Made by a program: the position numbers and the translations under genes. The notes below the pieces were generated by a model. It saw only the letters and a program-made list of their open reading frames with translations, had not been told where the DNA came from and searched no databases. From positions 251,488 through 315,487 of the IMG/VR virus record IMGVR_UViG_3300027896_005002: a DNA stretch of 64,000 nucleotides. One strand, 5' to 3'. Shown piece by piece: positions 22,287-56,365 of this stretch. This DNA is from a virus. Within the stretch, counting starts at the first letter, position 1. Every line of letters starts with the position of its first letter.

Positions 22287-22314
22287 GAATAAATTATAAC
22301 ATAGTTCTCGAGAA

Positions 22315-27269: not shown

Positions 27270-28934
27270 CTAATTGGTCCATAAATCTTCTTTCGTTAAC
27301 CAAGCCCTTTTTGCTATCCAAACACCAAAAGTTTGAACATAACTTAATTGATGTTTTTCATGAGCATCTGAACCAAATGAAATTTTCACACCTTTTTGCT
27401 GACACATTTTCAATATTGATTCATTGGCATCTAATCTATTCGGTTGACAATTTAATTCGACTGCTACATTATTGGCAGCACAAGCATCTAATACTTCACC
27501 AATATTCATTTCATGACCTGGTCTTTCGTTGATTAATCGACCAGTAATATGACCGATTATATCGACCTTGCCAGCTTGAATTACCGTTTTATATATTTCA
27601 GTTACATCTTTTGTTGTCGCTGAATGAATTGAACCAATGACTACATCGAGTTCGTCCAAAACATCATCTGGATAATCTAATGTGCCATCAGTTCTAATGT
27701 CGACTTCTGAACCTATTAAAATTTCAATATCGGAAAATTCTGTCCTCAATTGATGAATTTCTTTTATCTTTTGTTTTAATCTCTCAACACTTAATCCACT
27801 TGCAATTTTCAATGACTGAGAATGATCTGTAATTGCTATCTTTTTCAACCCAATCTTTCTGGCATATTCAACAATGTCTCGAATTGATGAAGTACCATCT
27901 GACCAAGTTGAATGAATATGATAGTCACAAACAATATCATCTTTTTCAATAATATCAATGTCATTACCTAACGCATATTTTTGAAATTCAATTGCTCCTT
28001 CTCGATGTTCCGGAGGAATCCATTCAAATCCTAATAATCGATAAATATCCTTTTCCGTTCCATTGTCCAATCGAGGACCAGTTCTTTCATCATTTTTATC
28101 CCGTTTATATAAACCATATTGAGAAAGAATCCAACCTTTTGCTATTGCAAATATCCTCATCTTTTTGTTATGTTCATCCGAACCAGTCAAATGCATGACA
28201 CCGGATTCAAAAACATCCTCATCAAAAGCATAGCAATCAATTTTTACACCATTTAACCAAACTGATGATTTTTTTTCACCAGAATCAATGACTTTTACTC
28301 CAGGCATATTTTCAAAATATCTTAAGGCTGCTTCTTTATCATCAGCCGTGATCGCAAAATCAACATCACCAACTGTTTCTTTTGACCTACGAAATGACCC
28401 ACAGAATTCAATCCGATTAACCTTAGGTTTCATATATTGAGCTATTAAGACAACATATTCAATAGCCTGATCCAACCTTATTCGTCCTCTAGTGGTCTCT
28501 AAATAAGCAATTCCTTTTTTAATTTTTTCAATGGTTTTGTTTTTAAAAATGTTGGCTATGGAATTGTCAACGATTGCAGCTTTTAAAGCAGCTATTGTAG
28601 AAATACCAAGTTCATGGTATATTTGAAGAGCAGTTTTTTCACCAATACCCTCAACCTTTAATAATTCATCAATTTTAACTGTTGATTGAAGGTACCTTTG
28701 ATTATCAATGATATATTGAATTTTACCGGTTTCAAGAAGCTCTTTTATATGCTGAGAAATTTTCGGTCCAATACCTTTAGTATTATCTAAATCTATACTT
28801 TCTATCCCAACATTTAAATGATCAACAAATGAAGCAGCAGATAGATAAGAACCAAATGAAAACTTGTTTGATCCGGTTGCTTTTTTTATTGTAGCTATAT
28901 CTCGTAAGGCATTTGCTACCAATTGATTTTCCAT
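27270..28934 (-). CDS. Family X DNA polymerase with C-terminal PHP phosphoesterase domain
   Basis: HhH GIGPKISQHI / GIGEKTALQI, nucleotidyltransferase motif CGSFRRSKETVGDVDFAI, then PHP DYHIHSTWSDG...ITDH. Confidence 0.8.
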   Translation of the reverse strand: MENQLVANALRDIATIKKATGSNKFSFGSYLSAASFVDHLNVGIESIDLDNTKGIGPKISQHIKELLETGKIQYIIDNQRYLQSTVKIDELLKVEGIGEKTALQIYHELGISTIAALKAAIVDNSIANIFKNKTIEKIKKGIAYLETTRGRIRLDQAIEYVVLIAQYMKPKVNRIEFCGSFRRSKETVGDVDFAITADDKEAALRYFENMPGVKVIDSGEKKSSVWLNGVKIDCYAFDEDVFESGVMHLTGSDEHNKKMRIFAIAKGWILSQYGLYKRDKNDERTGPRLDNGTEKDIYRLLGFEWIPPEHREGAIEFQKYALGNDIDIIEKDDIVCDYHIHSTWSDGTSSIRDIVEYARKIGLKKIAITDHSQSLKIASGLSVERLKQKIKEIHQLRTEFSDIEILIGSEVDIRTDGTLDYPDDVLDELDVVIGSIHSATTKDVTEIYKTVIQAGKVDIIGHITGRLINERPGHEMNIGEVLDACAANNVAVELNCQPNRLDANESILKMCQQKGVKISFGSDAHEKHQLSYVQTFGVWIAKRAWLTKEDLWTN

Positions 28935-29396
28935 ATATATATAATCAATTGGAAAGTCGTAGATTTGTTAAATCATAGATAAATAACATTATTTTCTTTG
29001 ACTTTTTAATATGGTTCGTATTAAAACAGATATTCATCACAGGCTTTTTTTATAGAAGCTAAATGATCACTTATTACCTAAAACTTCTTCATGACAATTT
29101 TCACAATAGAATCTTTCTTCTCCACGATTATAATCATCATAATTAATTTCTTGTATATGATTACTCAATTATTAGTAGTAGATTTTTGTCGTCGAATAGT
29201 CATTGATTTTTTAATAGGCTTTCCTACAAGACGTTTAGGAGGATGAATGTAGGTTTGTAAATTATAACTCCACATCCAATCATTTTCTTTTATTAATTCT
29301 CCTTCTCTCATTTGATAACCATGGCCATTACTTTGAGCACGTGACGTTTTGTATTTCATGTTCATGTAAATATAATCAAGATAAAAGCTGTAGATT

Positions 29397-29681
29397 TTAC
29401 AGAAGAGCTGTTTGACACATACAATAACCACCATTAAAATATCTATTACATTCCGGACAATAATGCCATGAATATACAGTTGTAAGTTGTAAATTTATAT
29501 CATCCAAATTACCTTCAAATAATTCATTTTTGTCTTTACCAAAAATCGTAAGATTATATTCTTTTTTGACTTTTTGATAACCTAAAGCAAAAGTCTGGTT
29601 AGTAGCACTACAAATATAATGGATTCTTAAAAAAAGTCTATCAAGAGGTTTATTAACATCAAAAATATCAGAATGACTCAT
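29397..29681 (-). CDS. Hypothetical protein
   Basis: 94 aa with a C-terminal CPECN...CMC zinc ribbon. Confidence 0.3.
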   Translation of the reverse strand: MSHSDIFDVNKPLDRLFLRIHYICSATNQTFALGYQKVKKEYNLTIFGKDKNELFEGNLDDINLQLTTVYSWHYCPECNRYFNGGYCMCQTALL

Positions 29682-30016
29682 CGTTCAACAAATAATATAG
29701 CATCATGAGGTAATATTACATAATCTTTACCATTAATTTGTACATCTATAGCATGATCTTTTAAATAAATTGCAATATCGTTTTCTTTTACTTGCAATGG
29801 AACATATTGAGGAGCTTGTTCATGTGGTTTCCACTCTTCATCTGTTTCTGAAATTTTAAAATCAGGAATTGCATACCCAGGACCAATATTGACAACAAAG
29901 CCTTTTGCAATATCTTTTTTAGCAGTCTGAGGTAGTATTATGCCGCCGGCTGTGGTTTCTTCTTTAAGTGGAGCGATTAAAACGCGACATCCAATAACGA
30001 TAATGTTGTTTAACAT
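29678..30016 (-). CDS. groES: Co-chaperonin GroES (Cpn10; T4 gp31 analogue)
   Basis: RVLIAPLKEETTAGGIILPQTAKKDIAKGFVVNIGPGY...VKENDIAIY...DYVILPHDAILFV matches the GroES pattern along its whole length. Confidence 0.8.
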   Translation of the reverse strand: MLNNIIVIGCRVLIAPLKEETTAGGIILPQTAKKDIAKGFVVNIGPGYAIPDFKISETDEEWKPHEQAPQYVPLQVKENDIAIYLKDHAIDVQINGKDYVILPHDAILFVER

Positions 30017-30345
30017 TTATCCTTTGAATAGTCTTCTAACAATTTTACAAGCTTGACATTATCAAATCGTTGTCTATCATTAGCAAGTCGTTTTTTAATA
30101 ATTTTGTAGTACCAACTAAGAATATCTGACATTCTACAAATAATTTCATCCTCTATTTTTTCAAAACAACAATCGCAAACAGTTAATCCTGCAAATGTAG
30201 TATGACTTACTGAATCATTATCATAAATACCTCGTTCATCTTCACCTTCATTATATTTTGCACCACAAATGTCACATGTAATATCACCACATGTTCCGGT
30301 GCCTACTCCAACACCAAATAATTCAGGTGAATCTTCATATCTCAT
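30010..30345 (-). CDS. Hypothetical Cys-rich protein
   Basis: 111 aa with TCGDITCDICG...CDCC. Confidence 0.3.
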   Translation of the reverse strand: MRYEDSPELFGVGVGTGTCGDITCDICGAKYNEGEDERGIYDNDSVSHTTFAGLTVCDCCFEKIEDEIICRMSDILSWYYKIIKKRLANDRQRFDNVKLVKLLEDYSKDKC

Positions 30346-30744
30346 TTTATTAACTCTAATTCATCAGGATCATATGAACCTATAGTATTATCATCATGAT
30401 GTAGTACATCATAACATAAACCATGAGCATCATGACTATCTATTATATGACCAAGTACACCCCATCTACGATGATATTTAGCTTCTTTTGTATATTCATC
30501 ATCATGTAATGGTTTTAATGTTTTAATGAGGATTCTCATATTATTAAAAGTAGGTGCAGTCTACCAAAACTGAAAAGAAAGATGTTTCTTTATCCATCCC
30601 TAAAACTAAAAACTGAAAACTAAAAGACAAACAACTTAAAATAATTTATCTTTTAGACAAGTATAAAATTTATGTCCATATTATTTAACGGTCTTTCGAC
30701 CCATAATACAAACATAAAAAAACTAGTTAACCACACCTACCCAA

Positions 30745-31272
30745 TTAAAGTTCTTCAACAACTGTTGATAAATTAAATTCATCTAATCCATCAACAATCT
30801 CATTAATTTGTCCTTGACAATTTTCTATAAGCTTATTCTTCTGTGCTATAGTCATCTGAGCTTTATATTTATTTGTTGCTTTTCCTTCATCACCATAAGT
30901 TGTCACTGCTTTTAAACCATATACAGGATTTAATTCTTTTAAAATTTGTATGTGAGATTTTAATTCACCCAATTCTAATATTTTTGGAAACATATTATAC
31001 TTGATATTAGTTTTCATAATCCTAGTTTTAAATTCAATAACTTTTGCTTTTTTGTCAATCAATGTTTTCAAAAGTTCATTGAAATCTTCAGGAAAATCAT
31101 TTTCCTCCAAAGTACTAACACAATTTTGCAGTCGATGCTGCAAATCCTTTACCTCACCTTGTAATCTTTTTACTGCTTTCATTGCTCTTACAATTTTCAT
31201 TTGAATATATCTCCTTTTTTCTTTATTATTTGCTAAATCATTAATCAAATTTACACGAAAGCATCTACTCAA
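30745..31272 (-). CDS. Hypothetical protein
   Basis: 175 aa, predicted helical. Confidence 0.3.
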   Translation of the reverse strand: MSRCFRVNLINDLANNKEKRRYIQMKIVRAMKAVKRLQGEVKDLQHRLQNCVSTLEENDFPEDFNELLKTLIDKKAKVIEFKTRIMKTNIKYNMFPKILELGELKSHIQILKELNPVYGLKAVTTYGDEGKATNKYKAQMTIAQKNKLIENCQGQINEIVDGLDEFNLSTVVEEL

Positions 31273-31467
31273 TTTTTAATCTAAAAAAAGTCTGTTCAGC
31301 CAGACTAACATATTCTTCAGCTGATCTAATTTGACCTATTGTTGTACAACCATTAACAACCTTTGCTGTTTTTTCTAACAATTTTATTTGCTCATCGTTC
31401 GTTATAGTTTTTTGTAAAAGATCCACTTTTGCCTGTAAATTGCTTTGAATATTAATAAACTCCATTA

Positions 31468-31965
31468 TTACCCCTCATTCTCATAAACGTCATTCCAACG
31501 ATTTTTTTGACTATCCAACGTATAAATATATGTTTCAACACTTATATGTTTTTCTATAATCGGACTAATAACTTTCCATTCTCCACCTGCTAATACACAA
31601 CCAAATCTCGGTCCACATACAATGACATTATCTTCTGTAGCTTTTTCATACACTGTCTTTAGACACATGTCTAAAGCTTTATAACGAATAGGCGCGATTT
31701 TTCCTGCCCATCGAATTCCATGTTGTGCAATCATATTGGCCACACAAATATCAGGAGTCACTTGAACAAATTGAACTTCTCCAAGTTGAGGATCACCTGT
31801 TGTAAACCAATGTTTATAAGCATTTTCTGATTCTGGATATTTATTTCTTAAAGCAATAACAAAACCTCGACCCCAACCACCTATGTCATTACAACAATGA
31901 ATTATCATAGCTGGTTTTTTGATGGGTTCAGTCGCATCACCTATTAAATAATGGATTTTAAGCAT
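31468..31965 (-). CDS. Macro-domain protein (ADP-ribose binding / hydrolase fold)
   Basis: GDATEPIKKPAMIIHCCNDIGGWGRGFVIAL matches the macro-domain GDIT...AIVNAAN..L..GGGV... layout. Confidence 0.55.
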   Translation of the reverse strand: MLKIHYLIGDATEPIKKPAMIIHCCNDIGGWGRGFVIALRNKYPESENAYKHWFTTGDPQLGEVQFVQVTPDICVANMIAQHGIRWAGKIAPIRYKALDMCLKTVYEKATEDNVIVCGPRFGCVLAGGEWKVISPIIEKHISVETYIYTLDSQKNRWNDVYENEG

Positions 31966-31982
31966 AAATTTTCTTTCTATTA

Positions 31983-32417
31983 TTATTTCAAAAGATATTG
32001 TAAAATTTTATCACGATTTTTCAAATACATTCTGAATTCCTCTAATTTTATTTCTTGCATTGTTTTTGCACTTTGAACATAATCAATTAATGTGTCTATA
32101 TGATCTGGTGGTTCAGTTATTCCTATATTCATTAAATCATCTTGGCCTTCTGTTGTATTTAAATAATCTACTATTTGTTGAAGTAACTTTTTACTTTTAT
32201 CTGTTAAAAATATCTTATCACTGTTCTTATCATGACGTTTTCTACCAGTTATATAAGCCCATTGATTATATCCACCAGGTCCTTTACAAATTTTCTTATA
32301 TAATCCTGATCGTATTCGAGCCCAGAATTTTTCTCTAATTAATAAAGACACTTCATCAAATTCCTCTTCCTCATATTTGTACATCCAATAATAATCGGAC
32401 ACATTATAACTCAACAC
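31983..32417 (-). CDS. Hypothetical protein
   Basis: 144 aa ORF. Confidence 0.3.
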   Translation of the reverse strand: MLSYNVSDYYWMYKYEEEEFDEVSLLIREKFWARIRSGLYKKICKGPGGYNQWAYITGRKRHDKNSDKIFLTDKSKKLLQQIVDYLNTTEGQDDLMNIGITEPPDHIDTLIDYVQSAKTMQEIKLEEFRMYLKNRDKILQYLLK

Positions 32418-33564
32418 TAAAAGTAATGTCTTTTAGTTTTAGTTTTTCAACCAAATATTTTTCAAGATATTTTCGAGATTTCATTTTTTCTAAATTATCA
32501 AAAAATTCTAGTATTGTTTTAACTTTGTTATCATATAATTGAAACATATAAGATGGATTTGCACAATCTTTTACAGCCAATGCAAATTCTTTTCGACTTT
32601 TTGAAAAATATTCTTTAAATTGTTCTGTTTCAGAATTAATTCTTTGAATATAAGCATCATATTTAGCTTTAACATCCATTACTATTTCAGTAAATTCACT
32701 AAAATAACCCAAAAATTCATCAATTTGATTATCAATTACCAAACTAATTACTGATCTTAAGCTACTACCTACTTTACTTTTTATGTGATGAATTGCAACA
32801 TATGATGGATTTTTAACTTTAACTCTTTTAAAACTGATGTTATCATCATCATTTTTTGTATAATCAACAGCAACAAATCCTTCATCTAAAGCTGCAAGAC
32901 TTTTGACTAAATCCAATAATTGATTTTTGTCAGCAAATGTTTCTATTTTTGGTAAATCAATACCAAGTTCTATTGACCACTCTTTTAAGTTTTTTAATGG
33001 AAGTTCTTCCCATGTAATAATCCGTCGCATCATTAATAAATGAAGTTGTCTATCTTTATAAATAGTAACAACTCTATTTTCTGGTGATGTTATTTCAAAA
33101 CAATATATAAATGACTTACTAATATTTTTCCAAAAATTTGGATATTTCTCTGTTGTTTTATAAAATAGATCTTTAAAAGTAATAGATGTTAGACCTACAC
33201 ATGATTCATTTTCAATCATGCCTCTTGTTGACATTAACCATTTATCATTGTAATTAAAGACAGATATTAATGATCCATCTAATTTTTCAAGGCCTACAGC
33301 TTTTGTAAAATCAAATGTATCTGTTATTCGAGGAACTTCACTATAATTAAAAAATCGTCGAAATGGATATGATATAATTCTCCAAGAATTTTTTTCTAGA
33401 ACTAATCCTCGACACTCTAAAACAATTAGATGATCTTTAGGCGAATCAATTTGATTATAATTTAAGACGACTAAGGACTCAAATTCGCTATAATCAACGC
33501 CAAATTCAATTTTAAGATTTTCTAAAGATTTTTCATTTAAATATTGTTGTACATTTAATAGCAT
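32404..33564 (-). CDS. RNA ligase 1 (T4 RnlA-like)
   Basis: Motif I VGLEKLDGSLISVF matches T4 Rnl1 ...KEDGSLVSTY (lysine adenylation site); length 386 aa is close to T4 Rnl1. Confidence 0.65.
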   Translation of the reverse strand: MLLNVQQYLNEKSLENLKIEFGVDYSEFESLVVLNYNQIDSPKDHLIVLECRGLVLEKNSWRIISYPFRRFFNYSEVPRITDTFDFTKAVGLEKLDGSLISVFNYNDKWLMSTRGMIENESCVGLTSITFKDLFYKTTEKYPNFWKNISKSFIYCFEITSPENRVVTIYKDRQLHLLMMRRIITWEELPLKNLKEWSIELGIDLPKIETFADKNQLLDLVKSLAALDEGFVAVDYTKNDDDNISFKRVKVKNPSYVAIHHIKSKVGSSLRSVISLVIDNQIDEFLGYFSEFTEIVMDVKAKYDAYIQRINSETEQFKEYFSKSRKEFALAVKDCANPSYMFQLYDNKVKTILEFFDNLEKMKSRKYLEKYLVEKLKLKDITFSVEL

Positions 33565-33608
33565 AGGTTTTATTATATGCTATTTTTTACAAGTGTTTTA
33601 TAAAATAA

Positions 33609-33642
33609 CTAAGGCTTGTTAAAAAAATCTAACAAGCCTTAG
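33609..33642 (-). terminator. Rho-independent terminator (13-bp perfect stem) downstream of ORF 33684..33947
   Basis: ctaaggcttgtta ... taacaagccttag inverted repeat with an 8-nt loop, then a T-rich run on the minus strand. Confidence 0.55.
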
Positions 33643-33683
33643 CAGTAGTCACTCATTTAAAAAATTCATTGCACAGCGTTGAA

Positions 33684-33947
33684 TTAAGTAAATTGTAAGA
33701 TAGATATTTTAGCTAGAGTGAGATTTGGATATCCATTTTGTAATCCAGTATCCAAAATAGCTTGTTTAATTTGAGTATGCCATTGGCTAGGAGAATTATC
33801 TGGGTCAAGTGAGATATTTGATCCAATATTATGCGTTTCACCTGCTGTATCTGTGTACCATGCATCCATTGAAACCAATATATTACCTGGTATCTGAGGA
33901 TCAGGTATGTCTTGAGTATACTTAAAACAAGTTGCTCTTTGTGTCAT
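33684..33947 (-). CDS. Hypothetical protein (higher-GC island)
   Basis: 87 aa ORF; composition clearly richer in G and C than the surroundings. Confidence 0.3.
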   Translation of the reverse strand: MTQRATCFKYTQDIPDPQIPGNILVSMDAWYTDTAGETHNIGSNISLDPDNSPSQWHTQIKQAILDTGLQNGYPNLTLAKISILQFT

Positions 33948-33960
33948 AAATTACTCCTTT

Positions 33961-35178
33961 CTATATTTCAGCATCCACTGTGCAATGAACTTTTATTTCT
34001 TGCCCTACTGACCAAGCTGCTAGACCTGTACAGTTAATATCTATACCGTCTGCAGATGGGTTCGCTGCTGCTGTAGCTGTTGCATCTGTAGCAGCAGGTA
34101 CGTTTCTCATAAAAGCATTAGCAGCACTGGGATTGTAGAAAGTAGTCGTGACTGGTGCAACTCTCATTTGCACTGGAAATTTCCATTGCATTGTTGAAGA
34201 AGTAGTAACAGCAGCAGCAATTGCAACCATTCCCCTTAAAGCGCCTGCAACACCACCACTTTGAGCAGGAGCAATAAGTGGAGGAAACGTCTTTTGATAA
34301 AATCTAAGACACCTTATAAGTTGTAATGATTGACTTCTAGGATACCAATCCCTAATCTCATAACCTGGATATAGACCGACCTCAGATATATTTAGTTCAT
34401 CATTATTAAGAGGTTGTCCATTAGTCCATATTGTTGGTATAATATTTTTACAAGTTGAAGGTATAATAAAAGTAGCTGAATATCGCACCCAGTTTGTTGT
34501 CAGAACACAAGTCATACCACTACCTACTAATGTTCCACCATCAACTAAAACTGGCGTGATATAAGTTAAGTTTGCACCAGCAGTCAAAGTAGGATCAGTT
34601 CCTACTGCACCCCACGCACTAATGTAACCTGCAGCACCAGAAGGCACTGTATCAACAGTTCCTCCACTGCCAAGAGCAACAATGCCCAGACGAACAGTCA
34701 TCGAAGATGCAACTGAATATTTCATCTTACATTGAAATCTAACAGTAAGACCTCTAAGATGTGCCATGTCATTTGTCTCAATTACCTGTCCGATAGCAAA
34801 CTTACCTGTATTCGTTATTTTCTTAAATTTTCCATATTGCCTAGTTGCTAAATTTGTCTCTGGTGTAGTCATTGTATCAACTACTTGAAAGTTCACACTT
34901 GCATTTTCATTTGATATCCACCAACGATCAGGACCATAAACTCTACCACCTACACTTGAATAAGTCGTCAATGTCGTTGGCACTTGTCGTTGAGCATAAT
35001 CAAATTCACCATTTGTGATGACGTTAGCATCTCTCAATCCAACAGGTGTAAGCGTGTCAATTTCACCAGAATCAAGTATTACCTTTAATCTACTATCAGC
35101 AGTATCATAATATATTGCTGCTTTATTTGTAGATGGTGTTCCTGGTGTTGCTGTCTTGTTAAGTACTAAAAAACTCAT
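33961..35178 (-). CDS. Putative fibrous / structural-like protein (higher-GC island), function unknown
   Basis: 405 aa, Thr/Ser/Gly/Ala-rich; N-terminus MSFLVLNKTATPGTPST...IYYDTADSRLKV is reminiscent of fibre-type proteins. Unassigned. Confidence 0.3.
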   Translation of the reverse strand: MSFLVLNKTATPGTPSTNKAAIYYDTADSRLKVILDSGEIDTLTPVGLRDANVITNGEFDYAQRQVPTTLTTYSSVGGRVYGPDRWWISNENASVNFQVVDTMTTPETNLATRQYGKFKKITNTGKFAIGQVIETNDMAHLRGLTVRFQCKMKYSVASSMTVRLGIVALGSGGTVDTVPSGAAGYISAWGAVGTDPTLTAGANLTYITPVLVDGGTLVGSGMTCVLTTNWVRYSATFIIPSTCKNIIPTIWTNGQPLNNDELNISEVGLYPGYEIRDWYPRSQSLQLIRCLRFYQKTFPPLIAPAQSGGVAGALRGMVAIAAAVTTSSTMQWKFPVQMRVAPVTTTFYNPSAANAFMRNVPAATDATATAAANPSADGIDINCTGLAAWSVGQEIKVHCTVDAEI

Positions 35179-39571: not shown

Positions 39572-40528
39572 TTAAAACTGAAAATCCGTGCTTTTCATAA
39601 TGTTCATTCCGGCCTTTTTGAATTTTTTGAATTCATTTTGTGTGATGGCTTCAAAATCCACTAGAGGATGTTTAACCGAACTCATACAATCCTCGAAAAT
39701 GAATACCTTTTTCAAAACATCCGGATCTTTTACGACAACGGCAAAGTAGTCGTAGATTTGCAATTCAGTTTCCAACACGCAATGGCTCTTTGCCTGGCCC
39801 ATGATGATGACCTTGTCGTGTTTCATCAACAGATTCAAGAAATCCGTATTGAATCCGCCTTGTTTGTGCTTTGCAATCGGTACTTCGGGCTTCAGAATAC
39901 CGTACATTTCTGATTGTGGAATGAGACCTTTTTGCAAGAAGTTGAGTTGGGATTTTCTTGCAAAAGCATGGAACGCAAGAATTTCAAACAGAGAAGGATC
40001 CATTGCATTGCCGGGCGTTCCAAGCATTGTATGATAAGGCCACAACATCAGTTTCTTTTGGGAATTTCTTTCCAATGTTGCTTCATACTCGATACTGCCT
40101 ACCGGATCGATGATTGCCTGAAAATCACCTTTATCCATTAACTTTTTCTCAAGTATGGAATAAATATCCGGTTTTTGCTGTTTCAGTGTCCTCCACCATG
40201 ACCGGTAGAAGATCTGGAAAATAAGATGGGTGTCCAAAGAAGCGAAGATCGTCGTTATTCTATCCATATTTGTCAGGATAAAAGTAATTGCTCGACGAAT
40301 ATCTTCTTCAGCTCCATCAACATATAGTGATCCATCCTTGTGACAAAAATCGATTTGCATATCGATGATCATCAATGCAATCTTCTCTTTGTCTGTTACC
40401 GATGCCGGAATGGACATTGCATCGGCTTCCTGTTCAACAATTCCGACTCCAGCCGGATTTTTGTACAACCGAGGTAGAAACAGTGTTCCTACTTTTGCTG
40501 GATCATAAAACGACGGCTTAAATGTCAT
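39572..40528 (-). CDS. Isochorismatase-family cysteine hydrolase (candidate nicotinamidase PncA-like)
   Basis: ALMIIDMQIDFC...GSLYVDGAE (catalytic Asp context) and IMGQAKSHCVLETE (catalytic Cys context GxxxxxCVxxT). Confidence 0.6.
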   Translation of the reverse strand: MTFKPSFYDPAKVGTLFLPRLYKNPAGVGIVEQEADAMSIPASVTDKEKIALMIIDMQIDFCHKDGSLYVDGAEEDIRRAITFILTNMDRITTIFASLDTHLIFQIFYRSWWRTLKQQKPDIYSILEKKLMDKGDFQAIIDPVGSIEYEATLERNSQKKLMLWPYHTMLGTPGNAMDPSLFEILAFHAFARKSQLNFLQKGLIPQSEMYGILKPEVPIAKHKQGGFNTDFLNLLMKHDKVIIMGQAKSHCVLETELQIYDYFAVVVKDPDVLKKVFIFEDCMSSVKHPLVDFEAITQNEFKKFKKAGMNIMKSTDFQF

Positions 40529-46488: not shown

Positions 46489-46498
46489 GTCCTATTAA

Positions 46499-50004: not shown

Positions 50005-51180
50005 CTACATTATTCCTAATGTTTGTTTACAAAGATTAACTGTTTTAATATTACCAGTATATTTTTTAGCGTCATCTGATAATTTTATTGTGTCTATCCA
50101 TTCATTACCAAAATTACATGCTATTAATTTAATGACTATATTAAGTGGTTTTACACCAACATCGTTTGTAAACCATGTACCAATACCATATCGATCAATT
50201 GCTTTATCTTTGCAAGCTTCATGAATAACATTAATCTGATCCATGGAATGAAGATTGTCCGAAAACATTAACATTTTACTGAGAGGATTTATTCTAAGTT
50301 TTTGATAATGTGCTATTGCTTTATCTAAAAAAATCAATGGTTGTCCACTATCTTGACGCATACCATCATAAAGCTTTGCATACTTTGTATTAAAAGATTT
50401 AAGAAAAACATCGGTGGTAAAAGTATCAGGTAATGCTGTTCCAAGATCACCATTAAATACTTCAACCCATGCTTCATTGGCCATATCATTGGCCATTTTA
50501 AATCCATATAAAGCTGCATGAAGCATATACCATTCATGAGCAACTGTTCCCATAGGAATAAGATTATGTAACATCGCAAAATGAATATTACTTGTTCCTA
50601 ACATATGACCATTGCCGTATTTTTTCAAATGTGCTATGGTTTCATTTTGAACGTGATAAGCAAATCGTCTTCGAGATCCAAATTCTGAATAGTAAATATT
50701 CATATTAGCTAATTTTTCTGCTTTGTCCCGATTATTTTGTTCCCGTTTTTCTATACTGTATATATCATTTTTAATTTCTTTACACGTCATTCTATAATAA
50801 AGTTCACTTATTGTACTCATTAATGGTACTTCCCATAAAACAGTTCTGTAAGCAGGTCCAATAATATCAACACTTAAATCTGGACCTTTTTGTTCTATTT
50901 TAACTTCACTAGGATCAAATTGATATCCTGCAAGAAAATCTAAATAAACGGGATTTAAATAATAACATCGTTCTCGTAAAAAATCTTTTTCATCATTACT
51001 AAGTTTCATTGTTCTAAAACCATCAACAAGTTTGCGTAATTGTTCAGCAAATCCGTCAGGAAATTCTCTCTTGTCACGATTTATAAACTTATAATGATTA
51101 AAAACTTTTGGATATTTTTGACAAATAGCCATGTCCATGGTTAATTTATATAAATCAGTATCTAGCATTGATGAAATCAT
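50005..51180 (-). CDS. pncB: Nicotinate phosphoribosyltransferase
   Basis: N-terminal MLDTDLYKLTMDMAI (NAPRTase hallmark LDTDxYKxTM), plus GTSN and GTVAHEW motifs. Confidence 0.8.
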   Translation of the reverse strand: MISSMLDTDLYKLTMDMAICQKYPKVFNHYKFINRDKREFPDGFAEQLRKLVDGFRTMKLSNDEKDFLRERCYYLNPVYLDFLAGYQFDPSEVKIEQKGPDLSVDIIGPAYRTVLWEVPLMSTISELYYRMTCKEIKNDIYSIEKREQNNRDKAEKLANMNIYYSEFGSRRRFAYHVQNETIAHLKKYGNGHMLGTSNIHFAMLHNLIPMGTVAHEWYMLHAALYGFKMANDMANEAWVEVFNGDLGTALPDTFTTDVFLKSFNTKYAKLYDGMRQDSGQPLIFLDKAIAHYQKLRINPLSKMLMFSDNLHSMDQINVIHEACKDKAIDRYGIGTWFTNDVGVKPLNIVIKLIACNFGNEWIDTIKLSDDAKKYTGNIKTVNLCKQTLGIM

Positions 51181-51944: not shown

Positions 51945-52808
51945 TTACATTATTTTTGCTTTAGAATCCCAATCAGTATATAATGAATTATCCGGTCTGT
52001 AAACTAAAGATTTTATACTTGAAGCAGTATTATTTTGTGTACAAGTTGAAGTTGATACAGTAACACCATTAATATCATAGGGTTGACCATTTCCAAACCA
52101 ATTCAATTTATCGCCATCACTTTCAACAACAATATCATCCAACCATTGAGTAATTTGATCTTGAGTTATTCTATTGTCATAACACCAACTCAAAAAATTA
52201 TCCATGTGCTTTACATTTTTTGGTATCCATAATTCTCTAAAAACTATAGATGTTACACCAAGTGATTTGTAATGCATAATATAACTAATCATTTGATTTT
52301 TTGAATTTATTCCGGCCTTGCATACAACACAACTTAATCTAACTGCAAGACCTAAATTAGTTAACTTTTTAAATAATTGAACATAATCCAATTCCAAACC
52401 ATACAATTCCTGACATTTATCAGTATTGTAATGCGGTACTGTCATTGTTAAATTAGTGATATAAGGAGCCAACATTTGGGAAAAATCCCGGCCAAAAGAA
52501 GGCATTGCCAGAATTTCAGAACCATTTGTATGAAGATCAATTTGACCGAAGTATTTTTTGCAAAGCCATAAAATATTTTCAATATTTGTCCAACTGCCTA
52601 ACAATGTTTCTCCAGAAGATGTTATAATCGCAGTCGAAGCATTTCCGTCTTTTGCGTATTTAATGCATTTTTCCAGTTTGGGTAAATTAATTCCAGGTTT
52701 TTTCAAATCTTTACGAATGTCTGCTGTCATAGCAGCTATGCAATATTTACATTTTGCATTACATCCGACTTCTTGAGGAACAATAGAAATAGAACTTATA
52801 TGCATCAT
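51945..52808 (-). CDS. Radical SAM enzyme, substrate unknown
   Basis: VGCNAKCKYCIA (CxxxCxxC) and SSGETLL (GGE-like SAM motif). Confidence 0.6.
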   Translation of the reverse strand: MMHISSISIVPQEVGCNAKCKYCIAAMTADIRKDLKKPGINLPKLEKCIKYAKDGNASTAIITSSGETLLGSWTNIENILWLCKKYFGQIDLHTNGSEILAMPSFGRDFSQMLAPYITNLTMTVPHYNTDKCQELYGLELDYVQLFKKLTNLGLAVRLSCVVCKAGINSKNQMISYIMHYKSLGVTSIVFRELWIPKNVKHMDNFLSWCYDNRITQDQITQWLDDIVVESDGDKLNWFGNGQPYDINGVTVSTSTCTQNNTASSIKSLVYRPDNSLYTDWDSKAKIM

Positions 52809-54412
52809 TTTCCTTGGAATTGGTTAAACAAATTAGCAATCGGCATCCTACGACCGATAATAAGATCCCTTTCTGATATGATTAATCCTGGAGCAGCTTG
52901 ATGTCTTTTATATTCATTTTTATCAACCATTTGAATTACTCTAGCTACAGTTTTATAATCAAACCCATTGTCGATGATATCATCAGCCGACATATTCTTT
53001 TCTATGTATCTTTTTAAAATACCGTCCAAAATATCGTAGGGCGGCAGTGAATCTGTGTCTTTCTGCTCAGGTTTTAGTTCTGCTGAAGGAGGTTTTGTAA
53101 TTGTATTTTTAGGTATTTGCAAATAAAGTTCACATATTTTATAAATAGTAGTTTTATAGACATCTGAAATTACAGATAAACCACCACACATATCACCATA
53201 AAGTGTACAATAACCTACTGACATTTCTGATTTATTTCCAGTAGATAATAATAATCGACCTTCATCATTTGAAACAGCCATTAATAAACAACCACGAATT
53301 CGAGCTTGAAGATTTTGTTCCGTAACATCCGATTTATATATTCCACCCAATGCAATATTATATACTTGTAATATTTGCTCAATATTTACTATTTGTGACG
53401 TCATCCCTAAATTATTAACTAAATCTTGAGCATCTGTTATGCTTCCCTGACTTGAATATGCCGACGGCATCAATAAACCATGTACATTTAAAGCACCTAA
53501 AGCTTCAACAGCAAGTGCAGCAGTCAAAGCAGAATCAACACCGCCAGATAATCCTAATACTGCTTTTTCGAATTTAGTTTTATAAAAATAATCACTAATT
53601 CCCAAAACCAAAGCCTTTTTGATTTGAACAGTGTCGCTTGGATATTCATTTACTGTGCCTTCGATATGTTTCAGTTGATGGTCTTCAAATTGTACCATAA
53701 CATTTGCTTCTGTAAATTGAGGTGCAATCATTTCAGCAATATCACCATTAACAATCATACTGGCACCATCAAAAATCAATCCATCCTGGCTACCGACCTG
53801 ATTGACATAGAGAATTGATTTGCCAACTTCCGTACTTCGTTTGGTAAGGACTTGTTTTCTTATTCCAACTTTACCTTTTGAAAAAGGTGATGCATTTAAT
53901 GAGATGATGAGATCGGTATCCTTATACATTGATACTGGTTTTTTATCATAATCATCATCCCAAGCATCTTCACAAATAATCAAACCGATTTTCGTTCCTT
54001 TTACGTCTAAAATCAATTTGGACGTTCCAGGAGTAAAATATCGCCGTTCATCAAATACAACTTTGTTCGGCAAAAGTTGCTTATAATATCGATTCACTTT
54101 ACCATTTTTAATCGCACTTGCAACATTATATAAATGAAGCCCAACCTTGACAACATGGCCTACAATAATAACTAAATTACTATAAGCTTTGGATAATACA
54201 CAAACATCGTCAAAAGTATTAGTATTGGCGTCAATGAAAGCCTGATTATATAAAAGATCTTTTTGTGGATATCCGGTTATTGTAGCTTCTGGGAAAACAA
54301 CAATATCTGCATTCTTATTTGCTGCAATCATCACACTGGATTTTATTTTATTTAAATTTTGTATAAAATTACCAACAGAAGTATTGATTTGTGCCACCAT
54401 TATTTTTAACAT
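52805..54412 (-). CDS. nadE: Glutamine-dependent NAD+ synthetase (nitrilase/CN-hydrolase domain plus NadE)
   Basis: PP-loop GLSGGVDSAL in the C-terminal synthetase domain; the N-terminal domain has the CN-hydrolase layout (...VFPE...CEDAWD...). Confidence 0.8.
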   Translation of the reverse strand: MLKIMVAQINTSVGNFIQNLNKIKSSVMIAANKNADIVVFPEATITGYPQKDLLYNQAFIDANTNTFDDVCVLSKAYSNLVIIVGHVVKVGLHLYNVASAIKNGKVNRYYKQLLPNKVVFDERRYFTPGTSKLILDVKGTKIGLIICEDAWDDDYDKKPVSMYKDTDLIISLNASPFSKGKVGIRKQVLTKRSTEVGKSILYVNQVGSQDGLIFDGASMIVNGDIAEMIAPQFTEANVMVQFEDHQLKHIEGTVNEYPSDTVQIKKALVLGISDYFYKTKFEKAVLGLSGGVDSALTAALAVEALGALNVHGLLMPSAYSSQGSITDAQDLVNNLGMTSQIVNIEQILQVYNIALGGIYKSDVTEQNLQARIRGCLLMAVSNDEGRLLLSTGNKSEMSVGYCTLYGDMCGGLSVISDVYKTTIYKICELYLQIPKNTITKPPSAELKPEQKDTDSLPPYDILDGILKRYIEKNMSADDIIDNGFDYKTVARVIQMVDKNEYKRHQAAPGLIISERDLIIGRRMPIANLFNQFQGK

Positions 54413-55442: not shown

Positions 55443-55802
55443 TTAAAAATCCTCAATAGTTGTAACAACTCTATTCTTTACAATAAGCCTATATTTACCA
55501 CATGGAATTTTACCAGATTTTAAATGATCAATAAGTGTTACATTTTTTTCTGACAGAATTTCATTTGAAATTGCAGCAATGTCAATTTTCAATACTCTTT
55601 CGCAATATCGCAATAATGCGTGTTCTGATACTACTGGTTTTCTATTCGAAATTTCTCTAATTTCCCGTCTTGTTTTTTCTAATTGTCGAGTTTTATCAAT
55701 GAGTTGTTGCCTCAATCGATCAAAATCTTTTTGAAGAAAAAGCAAATCTGATTCTAATTGAGTTTGTATAACTTGAAGCCGTTTTAAATCTTGTGCATCC
55801 AT
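55443..55802 (-). CDS. Hypothetical coiled-coil protein
   Basis: 119 aa ORF. Confidence 0.3.
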   Translation of the reverse strand: MDAQDLKRLQVIQTQLESDLLFLQKDFDRLRQQLIDKTRQLEKTRREIREISNRKPVVSEHALLRYCERVLKIDIAAISNEILSEKNVTLIDHLKSGKIPCGKYRLIVKNRVVTTIEDF

Positions 55803-56365
55803 TATAACATTTTATTTTTACAGAAAAATTGTATAAAAGAAACATATTTTGACAAAAGAAGAGTTTTCATGTCATGATGAGTCATTGAAATAAATTCATC
55901 AGCAGGCATTATTATTCTTTCAATTTTCTCACCTTCTTCTTCAAGTCCAAAAATTGTCCCATCCTTTAATTGATTTTGTTCAATAATTACATAAGCTAAA
56001 TATGCACATGATGTCAGTATACCTGGTGCTGCTGCAACCGGCTGTCCATTATTTAGTAAATTGACTTGTTCTATTGTAACAGAAGCTTTAATTTCTTCCC
56101 ATAATTCTTTTACAATTAATTCTTTCACACCTATTTTGGTATCAAATAAACCAGCAGGCACTTCGACTAAAAGTGGCGTTCCTGATGATATTTTTTCTCT
56201 CAAAGCTGTCCGTTCTTGTTTTACTAAAACAACACTATCTCGATCCCTTAAATAAACCAAAACAGCCACACAATCAGGTACTTCTACTACTTCTTTACCT
56301 GATATATCTATAAATACCTTTGAGAATCCAGAATGTAGCATTTTTTTAACATATTCATTTTTCAT
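55802..56365 (-). CDS. Nudix hydrolase, ADP-ribose pyrophosphatase-like (degenerate Nudix box)
   Basis: LLVEVPAGLFDTKIGVKELIVKELWEEIKA resembles the NudF region ...AGxLDxGE....A.RELxEExG; the final Gly of the box is not conserved. Confidence 0.45.
   Translation of the reverse strand: MKNEYVKKMLHSGFSKVFIDISGKEVVEVPDCVAVLVYLRDRDSVVLVKQERTALREKISSGTPLLVEVPAGLFDTKIGVKELIVKELWEEIKASVTIEQVNLLNNGQPVAAAPGILTSCAYLAYVIIEQNQLKDGTIFGLEEEGEKIERIIMPADEFISMTHHDMKTLLLSKYVSFIQFFCKNKML

What the first reader, a model, noticed from the sequence alone, without database searches (positions are those of the whole stretch)
31468..31965. Macro-domain protein in a phage carrying NAD salvage genes
A macro domain (ADP-ribose binding/hydrolysing) could remove ADP-ribose marks placed by host ADP-ribosyltransferase defences, or process NAD-derived signalling molecules. 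Together with the Nudix ADPRase-like protein and the NAD synthesis genes, it suggests a coordinated ADP-ribose/NAD counter-defence theme.
Basis: partly seen in the sequence, partly recalled or inferred. Interest (0 to 1): 0.5.

Follow-up and report, generated by a model that had tools for sequence, protein, structure and literature searches.

The report
Huge-phage SCO6735-type macrodomain hydrolase
The gene is a real, probably active ADP-ribose-removing enzyme (a macrodomain) in a roughly 416-kb phage that also carries NAD-synthesis genes; this kind of phage counter-defence gene is already known, so it is a solid but fairly ordinary find.

Summary
The ORF at 31468-31965 (minus strand, 165 aa) is real and is a macrodomain. 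Pfam-A gives no hit, but the sequence matches the solved macrodomains SCO6735 (E 7.6e-38) and BT1257 (E 9e-35). An AlphaFold model (pLDDT 96.4) superposes on BT1257 at 1.2-1.3 A.

It belongs to the glutamine-type branch of the ALC1-like class. The residues shown by mutagenesis to matter in SCO6735 are kept: N26, Q81, R33, R85 and G122. One glycine of the phosphate loop is valine (V124), and this is typical of its clade. It is not DarG, not MacroD/YmdB, and only marginally similar to the phiKZ anti-DarT macrodomain AdfM.

Two characterised relatives suggest different substrates:
- SCO6735 removes ADP-ribose from thymine in ssDNA and uracil in RNA.
- Phage Adpp dephosphorylates ADPR-1''-phosphate to feed NAD reconstitution.
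Sequence alone cannot decide between them.

The NAD genes are real (PncB, glutamine-dependent NadE, a weak ADPRase-like Nudix) but lie 18-24 kb away. The macro gene's own transcription unit starts with a T4 RnlA-type RNA ligase. In related phages the same macro family sits beside NARP1, NARP2 and NARP3-like NAD modules.

Verdict: new member of a known kind, modest interest.

The parts
31468..31965 (-). Stand-alone macrodomain gene (165 aa), SCO6735/BT1257 (Gln-type, ALC1-like class) subfamily
   Evidence: ORF. PDB phmmer 5e3b E 7.6e-38 and 2fg1 E 9e-35. Profile against PDB 1e-63 and 1e-58. AF2 pLDDT 96.4. Foldseek TM 0.86-0.92 to BT1257.
31861..31899 (-). Residues H23-F35, loop 1 of the ADP-ribose pocket (H-C-C-N26-D-I-G-G-W-G-R33-G-F). 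N26 corresponds to SCO6735 Asn27 and R33 to Lys34.
   Evidence: Alignment to SCO6735. In 122 sequences N26 and G34 are invariant and H23 and G32 are kept in 121. Mutagenesis data in PMC9411070. Codons checked.
31708..31725 (-). Q81-H-G-I-R85-W86. Q81 corresponds to SCO6735 Gln85 and occupies the position of the catalytic Lys of TARG1, DarG and AdfM. R85 corresponds to Lys89. W86 is a clade marker at the start of the long 'mobile loop'.
   Evidence: Q81 is invariant in 122 sequences. AdfM K78 aligns to Q81. W86 is typical of homologues at 50% identity or more.
31576..31611 (-). P119-R-F-G122-C-V124-L-A-G127-G128-E-W130, the phosphate-binding loop. V124 replaces SCO6735 Gly128 / TARG1 Gly123.
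   Evidence: Position 124 is V in 53, G in 47 and D in 10 of 122 family members.
31471..31530 (-). C-terminal tail (Y146-G165) carrying the clade-specific motif YTLxxQKxRWxxxYEN, absent from SCO6735/BT1257-type homologues
   Evidence: Modelled with pLDDT 82-92 and a short helix at 151-156.
32404..33564 (-). T4 RnlA-family RNA ligase, first gene of the probable transcription unit that contains the macro gene
   Evidence: Pfam RNA_lig_T4_1 E 2.6e-19. NCBIfam TIGR02308 E 2e-28, below its cut-off.
33608..33643 (-). Terminator-like 16-bp hairpin followed by a T-run, just upstream of the RNA ligase start. It marks the likely upstream boundary of the unit.
31983..32417 (-). Unknown 139-144 aa gene between the RNA ligase and the macro gene. 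It overlaps the ligase stop and ends 17 nt before the macro ATG.
   Evidence: No hit in Pfam, NCBIfam, PHROGs or PDB. Not conserved beside the macro gene in relatives.
31265..31465 (-). Unknown 66-aa gene starting 2 nt after the macro stop
   Evidence: No family hits. Not conserved in relatives.
50005..51180 (-). Nicotinate phosphoribosyltransferase PncB (distant context, 18 kb away)
   Evidence: Pfam NAPRTase E 1.1e-51. NCBIfam 407.6 bits, above the cut-off of 379.
52805..54412 (-). Glutamine-dependent NAD+ synthase NadE (distant context)
   Evidence: Pfam NAD_synthase E 2.9e-75 plus CN_hydrolase. NCBIfam 633.5 bits, above the cut-off of 479.
55802..56365 (-). Nudix hydrolase, weakly ADP-ribose/NDP-sugar pyrophosphatase-like, with a degenerate Nudix box (distant context)
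   Evidence: Pfam NUDIX E 1.5e-6. NCBIfam YffH/AdpP 35.8 bits, below the cut-off of 79.6. Box sequence GLFDTKI..KELWEEIK. PDB best match NUDT14, E 1e-3.

Best explanation
The gene encodes a catalytically competent, stand-alone macrodomain of the glutamine-type SCO6735/BT1257 branch of the ALC1-like class.

Proposed mechanism:
- The enzyme binds the ADP-ribose moiety between the GGWGxG loop and the PRxGCxLAGG loop.
- Asn26 locks Gln81 against the ring oxygen of the distal ribose.
- A water-mediated reaction releases whatever is attached to C1'' and yields free ADP-ribose.

My committed reading of the substrate is ADP-ribose attached to thymine in single-stranded DNA and/or uracil in RNA by a host DarT2-type or related ADP-ribosyltransferase. 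On this reading the protein acts as an 'orphan antitoxin', a nucleic-acid repair enzyme that keeps phage replication and transcription going. It would be made early, together with an RNA-repair ligase.

Shown: the fold, the family, the conservation of residues and the operon layout. Inferred: catalytic activity, the substrate and the counter-defence role.

The stated confidence of 0.4 is for the nucleic-acid substrate. Confidence that this is an active ADP-ribose-releasing macrodomain hydrolase used in counter-defence is about 0.8.
For: Family and fold:
- The closest characterised homologue is SCO6735 (about 40-42% identity over 140-154 aligned positions, E 7.6e-38). SCO6735 removes thymine-linked ADP-ribose from ssDNA faster than DarG or TARG1 and rescues cells from DarT (PMC9411070). 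It also removes uracil-linked ADP-ribose from ssRNA (PMC13036486).
- The model has pLDDT 96.4 and lies 1.2-1.3 A from BT1257.

Catalytic residues:
- Every SCO6735 residue whose mutation abolished or strongly reduced DNA de-ADP-ribosylation is kept or conservatively replaced, apart from Gly128: Asn27->N26, Gln85->Q81, Lys34->R33, Lys89->R85. Also kept are Gly126->G122 and His24->H23, whose mutant lost activity by misfolding.
- N26, Q81 and G122 are invariant in 122 homologues.
- The two DNA-positioning basic residues are kept as Arg here and in most of the query's clade. They are Ser and absent-or-variable in the Adpp-like phage macro.

Other support:
- The macro core is net positive, +2 here and a clade median of +4, similar to SCO6735 at +4.
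- The gene sits in a tight same-strand run behind a terminator, headed by a T4 RnlA-type RNA ligase and within a replication/repair region containing PolX-PHP, primase and helicase.
- A phage macrodomain that removes DarT2 marks from DNA has been demonstrated: AdfM of phiKZ (PMC13309987).
Against: - No biochemical data exist for this protein or for any member of its V124 clade.
- Gly128 of SCO6735 is Val here, and the G128E mutant of SCO6735 loses most of its activity.
- A sibling phage branch of the same Gln-type family appears to correspond to Adpp, a characterised ADPR-1''-phosphate phosphatase rather than a nucleic-acid enzyme.
- In relatives, the genes found beside this macro family are mostly NAD/ADP-ribose metabolite genes: NAMPT, NMNAT-Nudix, NrtR-type Nudix, PnuC, NadR-like kinases and SLOG.
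- The RNA-ligase adjacency is not conserved in the closest relatives.
- The host is unknown, so it is not known whether it carries DarT.
- The whole protein is not basic (pI 6.5).
Confidence: 0.4

Rival explanations
1. ADPR-1''-phosphate phosphatase, or hydrolase of another small ADP-ribose derivative (Adpp/Poa1p-like).

The enzyme would convert ADPR-1''-P into free ADP-ribose. ADPR-1''-P is made by RES-type NAD+-degrading defences such as aRES, or arises as the by-product of Tpt1/KptA-dependent RNA repair. The ADP-ribose would then be recycled by Nudix and the phage NAD-synthesis genes, restoring the NAD+ pool.
For: - PHROG 335 'phosphatase' is the only phage-family hit (E 1.7e-18).
- The family profile matches the NARP1-embedded (Prs-like / macro / NAMPT-like) Vibrio phage macro at hhalign probability 98%, E 2e-13, with the Gln aligned.
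- Adpp of this operon type was shown to dephosphorylate ADPR-1P and to defeat aRES (bioRxiv 10.64898/2026.01.28.702374).
- The family profile also matches yeast Poa1p (E 1.4e-12, N-terminal part only). The best BFVD structural match is labelled 'Poa1p-like'.
- Relatives lie directly beside NAD modules. One locus has NMNAT-like/NadE/../macro/Nudix-NrtR/../PnuC/NadR-like. Ten of 66 dereplicated IMG/VR loci have NMNAT-Nudix and/or NAMPT within 3 kb upstream. Nudix, SLOG or AAA_28 genes lie near seven of the nine V-type loci examined.
- This phage carries PncB, NadE and a Nudix.
Against: - Identity to the Adpp-like protein is only about 29%, against 40-44% to SCO6735/BT1257.
- The Adpp-like and 121Q proteins have Asp at position 124 and lack the basic residue at position 33. 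The query has Val and Arg.
- Of the three Poa1p residues mutated in the deposited structures (H23, S30, F152; role assumed from that), S30 and F152 are not conserved, being G30 and A126 here. This rests on the PDB entry names and an alignment to a Poa1p sequence recalled from memory.
- No Adps/Namat (NARP1) pair is present in the window, and the NAD genes are 18-24 kb away.
- Clustering of unrelated counter-defence genes in islands could explain the neighbourhoods. Most of the NARP2-linked loci share one syntenic block, so they are not independent observations.
Confidence: 0.33
2. Protein de-ADP-ribosylase.

The enzyme would remove mono-ADP-ribose from Glu/Asp (or other) side chains. The targets would be phage or host proteins modified by a host defence ADP-ribosyltransferase, or modifications made by the phage's own Alt/Mod-like enzymes, which it would then tune.
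For: - SCO6735 and TARG1 hydrolyse Glu/Asp-linked protein ADP-ribosylation.
- In some Streptomyces phages the gene next to the homologous macro gene is annotated Sir2 in some records.
Against: - SCO6735 strongly prefers DNA over protein substrate in competition.
- No ADP-ribosyltransferase or sirtuin was found among the window ORFs scanned.
- The 'ADP-ribosyltransferase' label in phage Francob is placed on the macro gene itself, so it is an annotation error.
Confidence: 0.1
3. Non-catalytic ADP-ribose binder.

The protein would act as a sensor or sponge that sequesters ADP-ribose-derived immune signals, or that binds and blocks a toxin such as DarT, rather than hydrolysing anything.
For: - V124 replaces a glycine whose mutation weakens SCO6735 and abolishes ADP-ribose binding in TARG1. 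The SCO6735 result is; the TARG1 G123E result is from my own knowledge.
- Catalytically dead SCO6735 still inhibits DarT by binding it.
- ICP1 AdfB works by binding DarT.
Against: - The catalytic pair N26/Q81 is invariant across 122 homologues, including all V124 members. That degree of conservation is not expected for a pure binder.
- Side chains at position 124 occur naturally (Asp) in the Adpp-like branch, whose tested member Adpp is an active enzyme.
Confidence: 0.05

Closest known systems
SCO6735 (Streptomyces coelicolor; PDB 5E3B) and BT1257 (Bacteroides thetaiotaomicron; PDB 2FG1/2AFC)
   Same: - Same fold and same length class, with 40-44% identity.
- Same Gln in place of the TARG1/DarG catalytic Lys, and the same Asn.
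- Same GGWGxG and PRxGCxLAGGxW loops, and the same long 'mobile loop' with no gaps in the alignment.
- Basic residues at the two DNA-positioning sites.

   Different: - Val instead of Gly at SCO6735 position 128.
- A conserved Trp (W86) in the mobile loop.
- An extra conserved C-terminal tail of about 18 residues (YTLxxQKxRWxxxYEN).
- Encoded by a huge phage rather than a bacterial chromosome.

Adpp, the NARP1-associated macrodomain ADPR-1''-phosphate phosphatase of phages (Vibrio phage Gary; operon-equivalent protein in Vibrio phage 184E37-2)
   Same: - Same Gln-type branch of the macro family (hhalign probability 98%, E 2e-13).
- Phage-encoded and stand-alone, about 150-165 aa.
- Same PHROG (335, 'phosphatase').

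   Different: - Only about 29-30% identity.
- Adpp-like proteins have Asp-Arg where the query has Val-Leu (positions 124-125) and Ser where the query has Arg33.
- Adpp lies between Adps and Namat. The query lies behind an RNA ligase, and no NARP1 genes are in the window.

AdfM (phiKZ gp104), the first reported phage macrodomain anti-DarT factor, and DarG2 macrodomains
   Same: A stand-alone phage macrodomain of the ALC1-like class. The proposed role, removing DarT2-type ADP-ribose from DNA, is the same as my best explanation.
   Different: - Sequence similarity is marginal: BLASTP 25 bits over 27 residues, hhalign probability 12%.
- AdfM and DarG use a catalytic Lys (K78 / K80) where the query has Gln81.
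- DarG also has a C-terminal DarT-binding domain and a neighbouring darT gene, both absent here.

Human TARG1/OARD1 and yeast Poa1p
   Same: Same ALC1-like class. Profile E-values are 2e-9 (TARG1) and 1.4e-12 (Poa1p, N-terminal part only), with Foldseek TM about 0.7.
   Different: - TARG1 catalytic Lys84 and Asp125 are replaced by Gln81 and Ala126.
- Poa1p Ser30 and Phe152 are replaced by Gly30 and Ala126.
- The mobile loop is shorter in TARG1.
(the TARG1 and Poa1p sequences were recalled from memory and checked against published residue numbers)

Membership tests
Macrodomain superfamily | Three-layer alpha/beta/alpha fold with a mixed six-stranded sheet | tested here: met
   AF2 model with pLDDT 96.4. 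All of the top 50 Foldseek PDB hits are macrodomains or designs built on that fold, with TM up to 0.92.
Macrodomain superfamily | Match to the Pfam Macro models (PF01661 and relatives) | tested here: not met
   There is no Pfam-A hit even at E<=10. Only 2 of the 120 closest homologues carry a precomputed PF01661 hit. This shows low sensitivity of the Pfam model for this branch, not absence of the fold.
Macrodomain superfamily | Gly-rich ADP-ribose / diphosphate-binding loops | tested here: met
   G29-G30-W-G32-R-G34 and G122-C-V-L-A-G127-G128 are present. G34, G122 and G128 are invariant and G32 and G127 are kept in 121 of 122 sequences. One loop glycine is Val124.
SCO6735/BT1257 subfamily (Gln-type, ALC1-like class) | Full-length sequence similarity to the solved members | tested here: met
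   phmmer E 7.6e-38 and 9e-35. Profile E 1e-58 and 1e-63.
SCO6735/BT1257 subfamily (Gln-type, ALC1-like class) | Gln at the position of the TARG1/DarG catalytic Lys, positioned by a conserved Asn (SCO6735 Gln85 / Asn27) | tested here: met
   Q81 and N26 are present and invariant in 122 sequences.
SCO6735/BT1257 subfamily (Gln-type, ALC1-like class) | Long 'mobile loop' (five residues longer than in TARG1/DarG) | tested here: met
   Residues 82-92 align without gaps to SCO6735. TARG1 has a 5-6 residue gap in this region.
SCO6735/BT1257 subfamily (Gln-type, ALC1-like class) | Gly126 and Gly128 in the phosphate-binding loop | tested here: inconclusive
   G122 is present. Position 124 is Val. Across the family this position is V in 53, G in 47 and D in 10 of 122 sequences, so it does not define the wider family but does separate the query's clade from the characterised members.
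SCO6735/BT1257 subfamily (Gln-type, ALC1-like class) | Hydrolysis of thymine-linked (DNA) or uracil-linked (RNA) ADP-ribose | not testable with these tools
   This needs an enzyme assay.
DarG antitoxin (type II TA, NCBIfam NF048014) | Score above the curated cut-off | tested here: not met
   23.5 bits against a cut-off of 250.
DarG antitoxin (type II TA, NCBIfam NF048014) | Catalytic Lys (Lys80 of T. aquaticus DarG) | tested here: not met
   Gln81 occupies this position.
DarG antitoxin (type II TA, NCBIfam NF048014) | C-terminal DarT-binding domain and an adjacent darT gene | tested here: not met
   The protein is 165 aa and consists of the macro domain only. The neighbours are an RNA ligase and small unknown genes with no ART signature.
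AdfM (chimallivirus anti-DarT macro) | Homology to phiKZ gp104 with the N23/K78 active site | tested here: not met
   BLASTP gives 25 bits over 27 residues. hhalign gives probability 12%. K78 aligns to Q81.
Adpp / Poa1p-type ADPR-1''-P phosphatase | Position inside a NARP1 operon (Adps-Adpp-Namat) | tested here: not met
   No Prs-like or NAMPT-like gene lies next to the macro gene or anywhere among the window ORFs scanned. The other roughly 350 kb of the genome was not seen.
Adpp / Poa1p-type ADPR-1''-P phosphatase | Sequence relationship to the NARP1-embedded phage macro | tested here: met
   hhalign probability 98%, E 2e-13, 30% identity. Shared PHROG 335. This shows family-level relatedness only; SCO6735 is much closer.
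Adpp / Poa1p-type ADPR-1''-P phosphatase | Poa1p residues mutated in the deposited structures (His23, Ser30, Phe152), assumed to be functionally important | tested here: inconclusive
   His23 is conserved. Ser30 is Gly and Phe152 is Ala. The NARP1-embedded Vibrio protein also lacks Ser30 and Phe152, so these residues do not define the phage enzymes (Poa1p mutant names; Poa1p sequence recalled from memory).
MacroD/YmdB-type O-acetyl-ADP-ribose deacetylase (the automatic JGI name of the homologues) | Similarity to MacroD/YmdB structures or the PF01661 signature | tested here: not met
   No MacroD or YmdB chain appears in the PDB sequence searches at E<=10 or E<=1. There is no PF01661 hit. The JGI label looks like a generic COG-level name.

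The most novel reading that the evidence does not exclude
The V124 / W86 / C-terminal-tail clade appears to be largely confined to large environmental phage contigs. It could be a distinct specificity class of macrodomain hydrolase that acts on an ADP-ribose conjugate or immune signal not yet described.

On this reading it would work together with Nudix, SLOG and NadR-like genes and with a fourth, Preiss-Handler-type phage NAD+ rebuilding route (nicotinamidase-like / PncB / NadE). That route differs from NARP1, NARP2 and NARP3.
Probability: 0.1. Interest if true: 0.6.

Novelty: new member of a known kind. Interest (0 to 1): 0.3.

Why it matters
ADP-ribosylation and NAD+ depletion are central weapons in bacterial anti-phage immunity, and phage macrodomains have only just been shown to counter them: AdfM against DarT2 and Adpp against aRES.

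This gene shows that a third, sequence-distinct group of macrodomains is common in huge environmental phages. It is the glutamine-type SCO6735-like branch, here in a clade with its own markers. The wider family sits beside every known type of phage NAD+ reconstitution module.

If tested, the protein would help to settle whether this branch repairs ADP-ribosylated nucleic acid or recycles ADP-ribose metabolites. It would also show whether the residue at position 124 (Gly, Val or Asp) sets that choice. As a single annotation it does not change current understanding.

Tried and rejected
- Pfam-A on the macro ORF gave no hit at E<=10. This is a model-sensitivity issue, not evidence against the fold.
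- DarG membership was rejected on score, catalytic residue, domain architecture and neighbourhood.
- The MacroD/YmdB label used by JGI was rejected.
- A conserved RNA-ligase/macro operon, or an RNA-repair pathway with Tpt1, was not supported. The closest relatives at 63-77% identity share only the macro gene with this locus. No KptA/Tpt1 or 2H phosphoesterase was found among the scanned ORFs. The 144-aa gene between the ligase and the macro has no detectable family.
- A megablast search of the region against cultured phages found nothing.
- A regex search for a canonical Nudix box found none. The Nudix gene has a degenerate box.
- Sigma-70 promoter scanning was uninformative: 44 sites against 37.7 +/- 6 expected.
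- Net charge and pI did not separate nucleic-acid-type from phosphatase-type relatives.
- Synteny between the NAD cluster around the macro gene in L014 and the window's NAD cluster was tested and not found; only NadE matches, at 28% identity.
- The literature search for the Poa1p structure paper did not return it.
- I ran no further search on the 144-aa neighbour because it is not conserved beside the macro gene.
Full report

Yes. An ORF runs from 31965 (ATG) to 31468 (TAA) on the minus strand and encodes 165 residues. It is not a chance ORF.
- An identical protein is found on three other metagenome contigs, the longest about 416 kb.
- The large protein database holds 871 homologues at E<=1e-5.

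Other evidence does confirm it.
- phmmer against PDB chains gives SCO6735 from Streptomyces coelicolor (5e3b, 'Macrodomain protein') at E 7.6e-38, BT1257 (2fg1/2afc) at E 9e-35, and the macro domain of ALC1/CHD1L at E 1e-9.
- A 60-sequence profile raises these to 1e-58, 1e-63 and 9e-24. It adds Poa1p (1.4e-12, N-terminal part), TARG1 (2e-9) and DarG (2e-6).
- An AlphaFold2 model built on that alignment has mean pLDDT 96.4 and pTM 0.91.
- The model superposes on BT1257 with TM 0.86-0.92 and rmsd 1.2-1.3 A. Next come SCO6735, ALC1, DarG, TARG1 and Poa1p.

**2. Which macrodomain, and are the functional residues there?**

The SCO6735 study (PMC9411070) defines a subclass of the ALC1-like class. 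This subclass lacks the catalytic Lys of TARG1 and DarG and uses Gln85, held by Asn27. Lys34 and Lys89 position the DNA, and Gly126 and Gly128 lie in the phosphate-binding loop. Mapping through the pairwise alignment and a 122-sequence alignment gives:

| SCO6735 | Query | Note |
|---|---|---|
| His24 | H23 | kept in 121 of 122 sequences |
| Val25 | C24 | backbone contact only |
| Asn27 | N26 | invariant |
| Lys34 | R33 | conservative change |
| Gln85 | Q81 | invariant |
| Gly87 | G83 | |
| Lys89 | R85 | conservative change |
| Gly126 | G122 | invariant |
| Gly128 | V124 | the one departure |
| Gly131-Gly132 | G127-G128 | G128 invariant |

The 'mobile loop' has the long SCO6735 length.

The one departure is V124. 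SCO6735 G128E loses most of its activity. However, position 124 is not conserved in the family: V in 53, G in 47, D in 10.

The split at position 124 is clean.
- Homologues at 50% identity or more to the query mostly carry Val, less often Asp. They also have Trp at position 86 and, in most cases, a C-terminal tail of about 18 residues with the motif YTLxxQKxRWxxxYEN.
- Homologues below about 48% identity are the classical Gly type, like SCO6735 and BT1257.

So the query is a member of the SCO6735/BT1257 subfamily but belongs to a distinct, uncharacterised clade. The members whose contigs I examined are phage-like, and several contigs are 148-474 kb long.

**3. What it is not**

- It is not DarG. 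It scores 23.5 bits against a cut-off of 250, has Gln instead of the catalytic Lys, has no C-terminal DarT-binding domain and has no darT neighbour.
- It is not MacroD/YmdB, which is the automatic JGI name of many homologues. No such chain or Pfam signature is matched.
- It is only marginally similar to AdfM (phiKZ gp104), the first phage macrodomain shown to remove DarT2 marks (PMC13309987). BLASTP gives 25 bits over 27 residues and hhalign gives probability 12%. AdfM's catalytic Lys78 falls on Q81.

**4. A second characterised relative**

A 2026 preprint (10.64898/2026.01.28.702374) shows that 15% of NARP1 operons carry a macrodomain, Adpp. Adpp dephosphorylates ADPR-1''-phosphate, the product of RES-type NAD+ cleavage, so that NARP1 can rebuild NAD+.

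Among my tblastn hits are Vibrio phages in which the homologous 'phosphatase' lies between a Prs-like and a NAMPT-like gene, which is that operon. This Adpp-like protein has the following properties.
- It is itself closer to BT1257/SCO6735 than to Poa1p.
- It matches the query's family profile at hhalign probability 98%, E 2e-13.
- It keeps the Asn and the Gln.
- It has Ser at position 33 and Asp-Arg at positions 124-125. Phage 121Q also has Asp at 124.

The Gln-type branch therefore contains both a nucleic-acid ADP-ribosylhydrolase (SCO6735) and, very probably, an ADPR-1''-P phosphatase (Adpp). The query is about 40% identical to the first and about 29% to the second. At position 124 it carries a third state, Val.

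**5. Genomic setting in the window**

The window has 31% G+C, and the 6-kb stretch around the gene (29000-35000) has no DNA-level match to cultured phages. It carries a tail-fibre gene, an intein, homing endonucleases and a large replication/repair set.

A 16-bp terminator-like hairpin at 33643-33608 precedes a tight same-strand run:
- a T4 RnlA-family RNA ligase at 32404-33564;
- an unknown 144-aa gene whose start overlaps the ligase gene's stop codon;
- the macro gene, 17 nt further on;
- an unknown 66-aa gene, 2 nt further on;
- a DUF6847 gene.

The NAD genes are real but distant:
- PncB (50005-51180) and glutamine-dependent NadE (52805-54412), both above the curated NCBIfam cut-offs;
- a Nudix (55802-56365) that is only weakly ADP-ribose/NDP-sugar pyrophosphatase-like and has a degenerate box;
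- a weak nicotinamidase-like protein (39572-40528).

A NAD-dependent DNA ligase at 58954-60924 is an alternative reason for the phage to secure NAD+.

**6. Genomic setting in relatives**

The closest relatives (63-77% identity, on contigs of 148-474 kb) share only the macro gene with this locus, so the RNA-ligase adjacency is not conserved. NAD/ADP-ribose genes do recur near the macro gene.

Across nine V-type loci:
- AAA_28 (NadR-kinase-like) genes lie within 5 kb in five;
- Nudix genes lie within 4 kb in three;
- SLOG-family genes lie next door or 0.7 kb away in two.

One locus (L014) has the order NMNAT-like / NadE / ... / radical-SAM / macro / Nudix-NrtR / ... / PnuC / NadR-like. The macro reading frame overlaps both of its immediate neighbours (a 306-aa unknown gene and the Nudix-NrtR gene) by 4 nt.

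I also ran an unbiased clustering of neighbours around 66 dereplicated loci, 61 of them from IMG/VR. The commonest families within 3 kb were:
- a PTH2-like peptidyl-tRNA hydrolase (12 loci);
- a bifunctional NMNAT-Nudix (9 loci);
- NAMPT (9 loci), which with NMNAT-Nudix makes up NARP2.

These mostly fall in one syntenic block, NMNAT-Nudix / NAMPT / (DSPc) / macro / PTH2 / HD / PD-(D/E)XK. They therefore count as few independent events.

Together with the published NARP1-Adpp case, the same macro family is found beside NARP1, NARP2 and NARP3-like modules. RNA-repair or tRNA genes are a second recurring theme: RNA ligase, PNK, RtcB, the CCA-adding enzyme and PTH2. Both themes match the survey of Iyer et al. 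(PMC9503650). That survey reports Macro domains in 56% of jumbo phages, typically in early regions with host-manipulation and RNA-repair genes.

**7. Mechanism and how sure**

Well supported (about 0.8): this is an active macrodomain hydrolase that releases free ADP-ribose from a C1''-substituted ADP-ribose and serves counter-defence.

The substrate is unresolved. I commit, at about 0.4, to base-linked ADP-ribose on single-stranded nucleic acid: thymine in DNA and uracil in RNA, as made by DarT2-type toxins. My reasons are:
- the nearest characterised homologue does exactly this;
- every residue tested there except Gly128 is retained, including the two basic DNA-positioning residues that the Adpp-like branch lacks;
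- the local operon is a nucleic-acid repair one.

The main rival, at about 0.33, is ADPR-1''-P or another small ADP-ribose derivative. It is favoured by the neighbourhoods in relatives and by the kinship with Adpp and Poa1p. Protein de-ADP-ribosylation (about 0.1) and a non-catalytic binder (about 0.05) are less likely. These enzymes are chemically promiscuous at C1'', so both main activities may be present in vitro.

**8. Novelty and score**

Macrodomains in large phages, their link to NAD/ADP-ribose conflict, and their use as counter-defence enzymes are all already described. This protein is a new, uncharacterised member of a known family, in a clade with recognisable markers.

Interest is modest (0.3). 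A specialist would not be surprised. The Gly/Val/Asp choice at position 124, and the family's presence beside three different NAD-rebuilding modules, are testable leads.

Noticed in passing
window 39572-40528, 50005-51180, 52805-54412: The phage's NAD genes form a Preiss-Handler-type set: a weak nicotinamidase-like protein, a bona fide PncB and a glutamine-dependent NadE. This is not NARP1 (Adps/Namat), NARP2 (NAMPT/NMNAT-Nudix) or NARP3 (PnuC/NadR). No NadD was found among the window ORFs scanned. It may be a fourth phage route to NAD+, or simply support for the NAD-dependent ligase.
   Followed up: partly
window 51177-51941 and 51945-52808: A GIY-YIG/NUMOD3 homing endonuclease and a weak radical-SAM-like gene sit between PncB and NadE. 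A radical-SAM gene also lies two genes upstream of the macro gene in the NAD cluster of the unrelated locus L014, although the two radical-SAM proteins do not match at E<1e-4.
   Followed up: partly
IMG/VR loci L021, L032, L034, L040, L048, L052, L065, L070, L079 (match at about 10001 in most): These loci share a conserved block: NMNAT-Nudix / NAMPT / (dual-specificity phosphatase) / macro / PTH2-like peptidyl-tRNA hydrolase / unknown 119 aa / HD (RelA/SpoT-like) / PD-(D/E)XK nuclease. It looks like a NARP2-centred counter-defence island, and I did not find the extra members described in the literature I read.
   Followed up: partly
L014 691-9756 (Logan ERR9973195 contig): A phage-like contig carries the cluster NMNAT-like, NadE, radical SAM, macro, Nudix fused to an NrtR winged-helix domain, PnuC and a 329-aa NadR-like protein. 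That amounts to a NARP3-like pair plus NadE plus an ADP-ribose-responsive regulator-like Nudix, all on one strand.
   Followed up: no
window 4288-7269 and 9810-11660: The DNA polymerase III alpha subunit is split into two ORFs, PHP plus the N-terminal part and then the rest. About 2.5 kb of other genes lie between them (zf-like, BrnA-antitoxin-like), and the downstream part contains an intein.
   Followed up: no
window 40580-43417: An adjacent pair of a Ser/Thr protein kinase-like gene (619 aa) and a PP2C phosphatase-like gene (325 aa). A T7 kinase that disarms defences by phosphorylation was among the literature hits (PMC13645617).
   Followed up: no
window 44813-48262: An ABC-transporter ATPase, a binding-protein-dependent permease component and a 587-aa protein with a C-terminal OmpA domain lie next to each other. 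This is unusual cargo for a phage.
   Followed up: no
window 21768-23076 and 29678-30016: The phage encodes a NusG-like protein, a sigma-70 region-2 protein and a GroES-like co-chaperonin.
   Followed up: no
window 12464-13123, 27270-28934, 44148-44816, 58954-60924: A base-excision-repair-like toolkit is present: UDG-family glycosylase, PolX with a PHP domain, an Ogg 8-oxoguanine glycosylase and the NAD-dependent ligase LigA. A second small RNA/DNA-ligase-like gene lies at 61598-62215.
   Followed up: no
window 61225-61292 and 62858-62948: There are two tRNA-Cys(GCA) genes on the minus strand. The second is 91 nt long with the anticodon at position 37, so it may carry an insertion or intron.
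   Followed up: no
L012 3998-4486 (Streptomyces phage Francob gene 167): The homologous macro gene is annotated 'ADP-ribosyltransferase' in GenBank. In other Streptomyces phages it is labelled 'hydrolase' or 'phosphatase'. The first label is an annotation error, because the protein is a macrodomain.
   Followed up: partly
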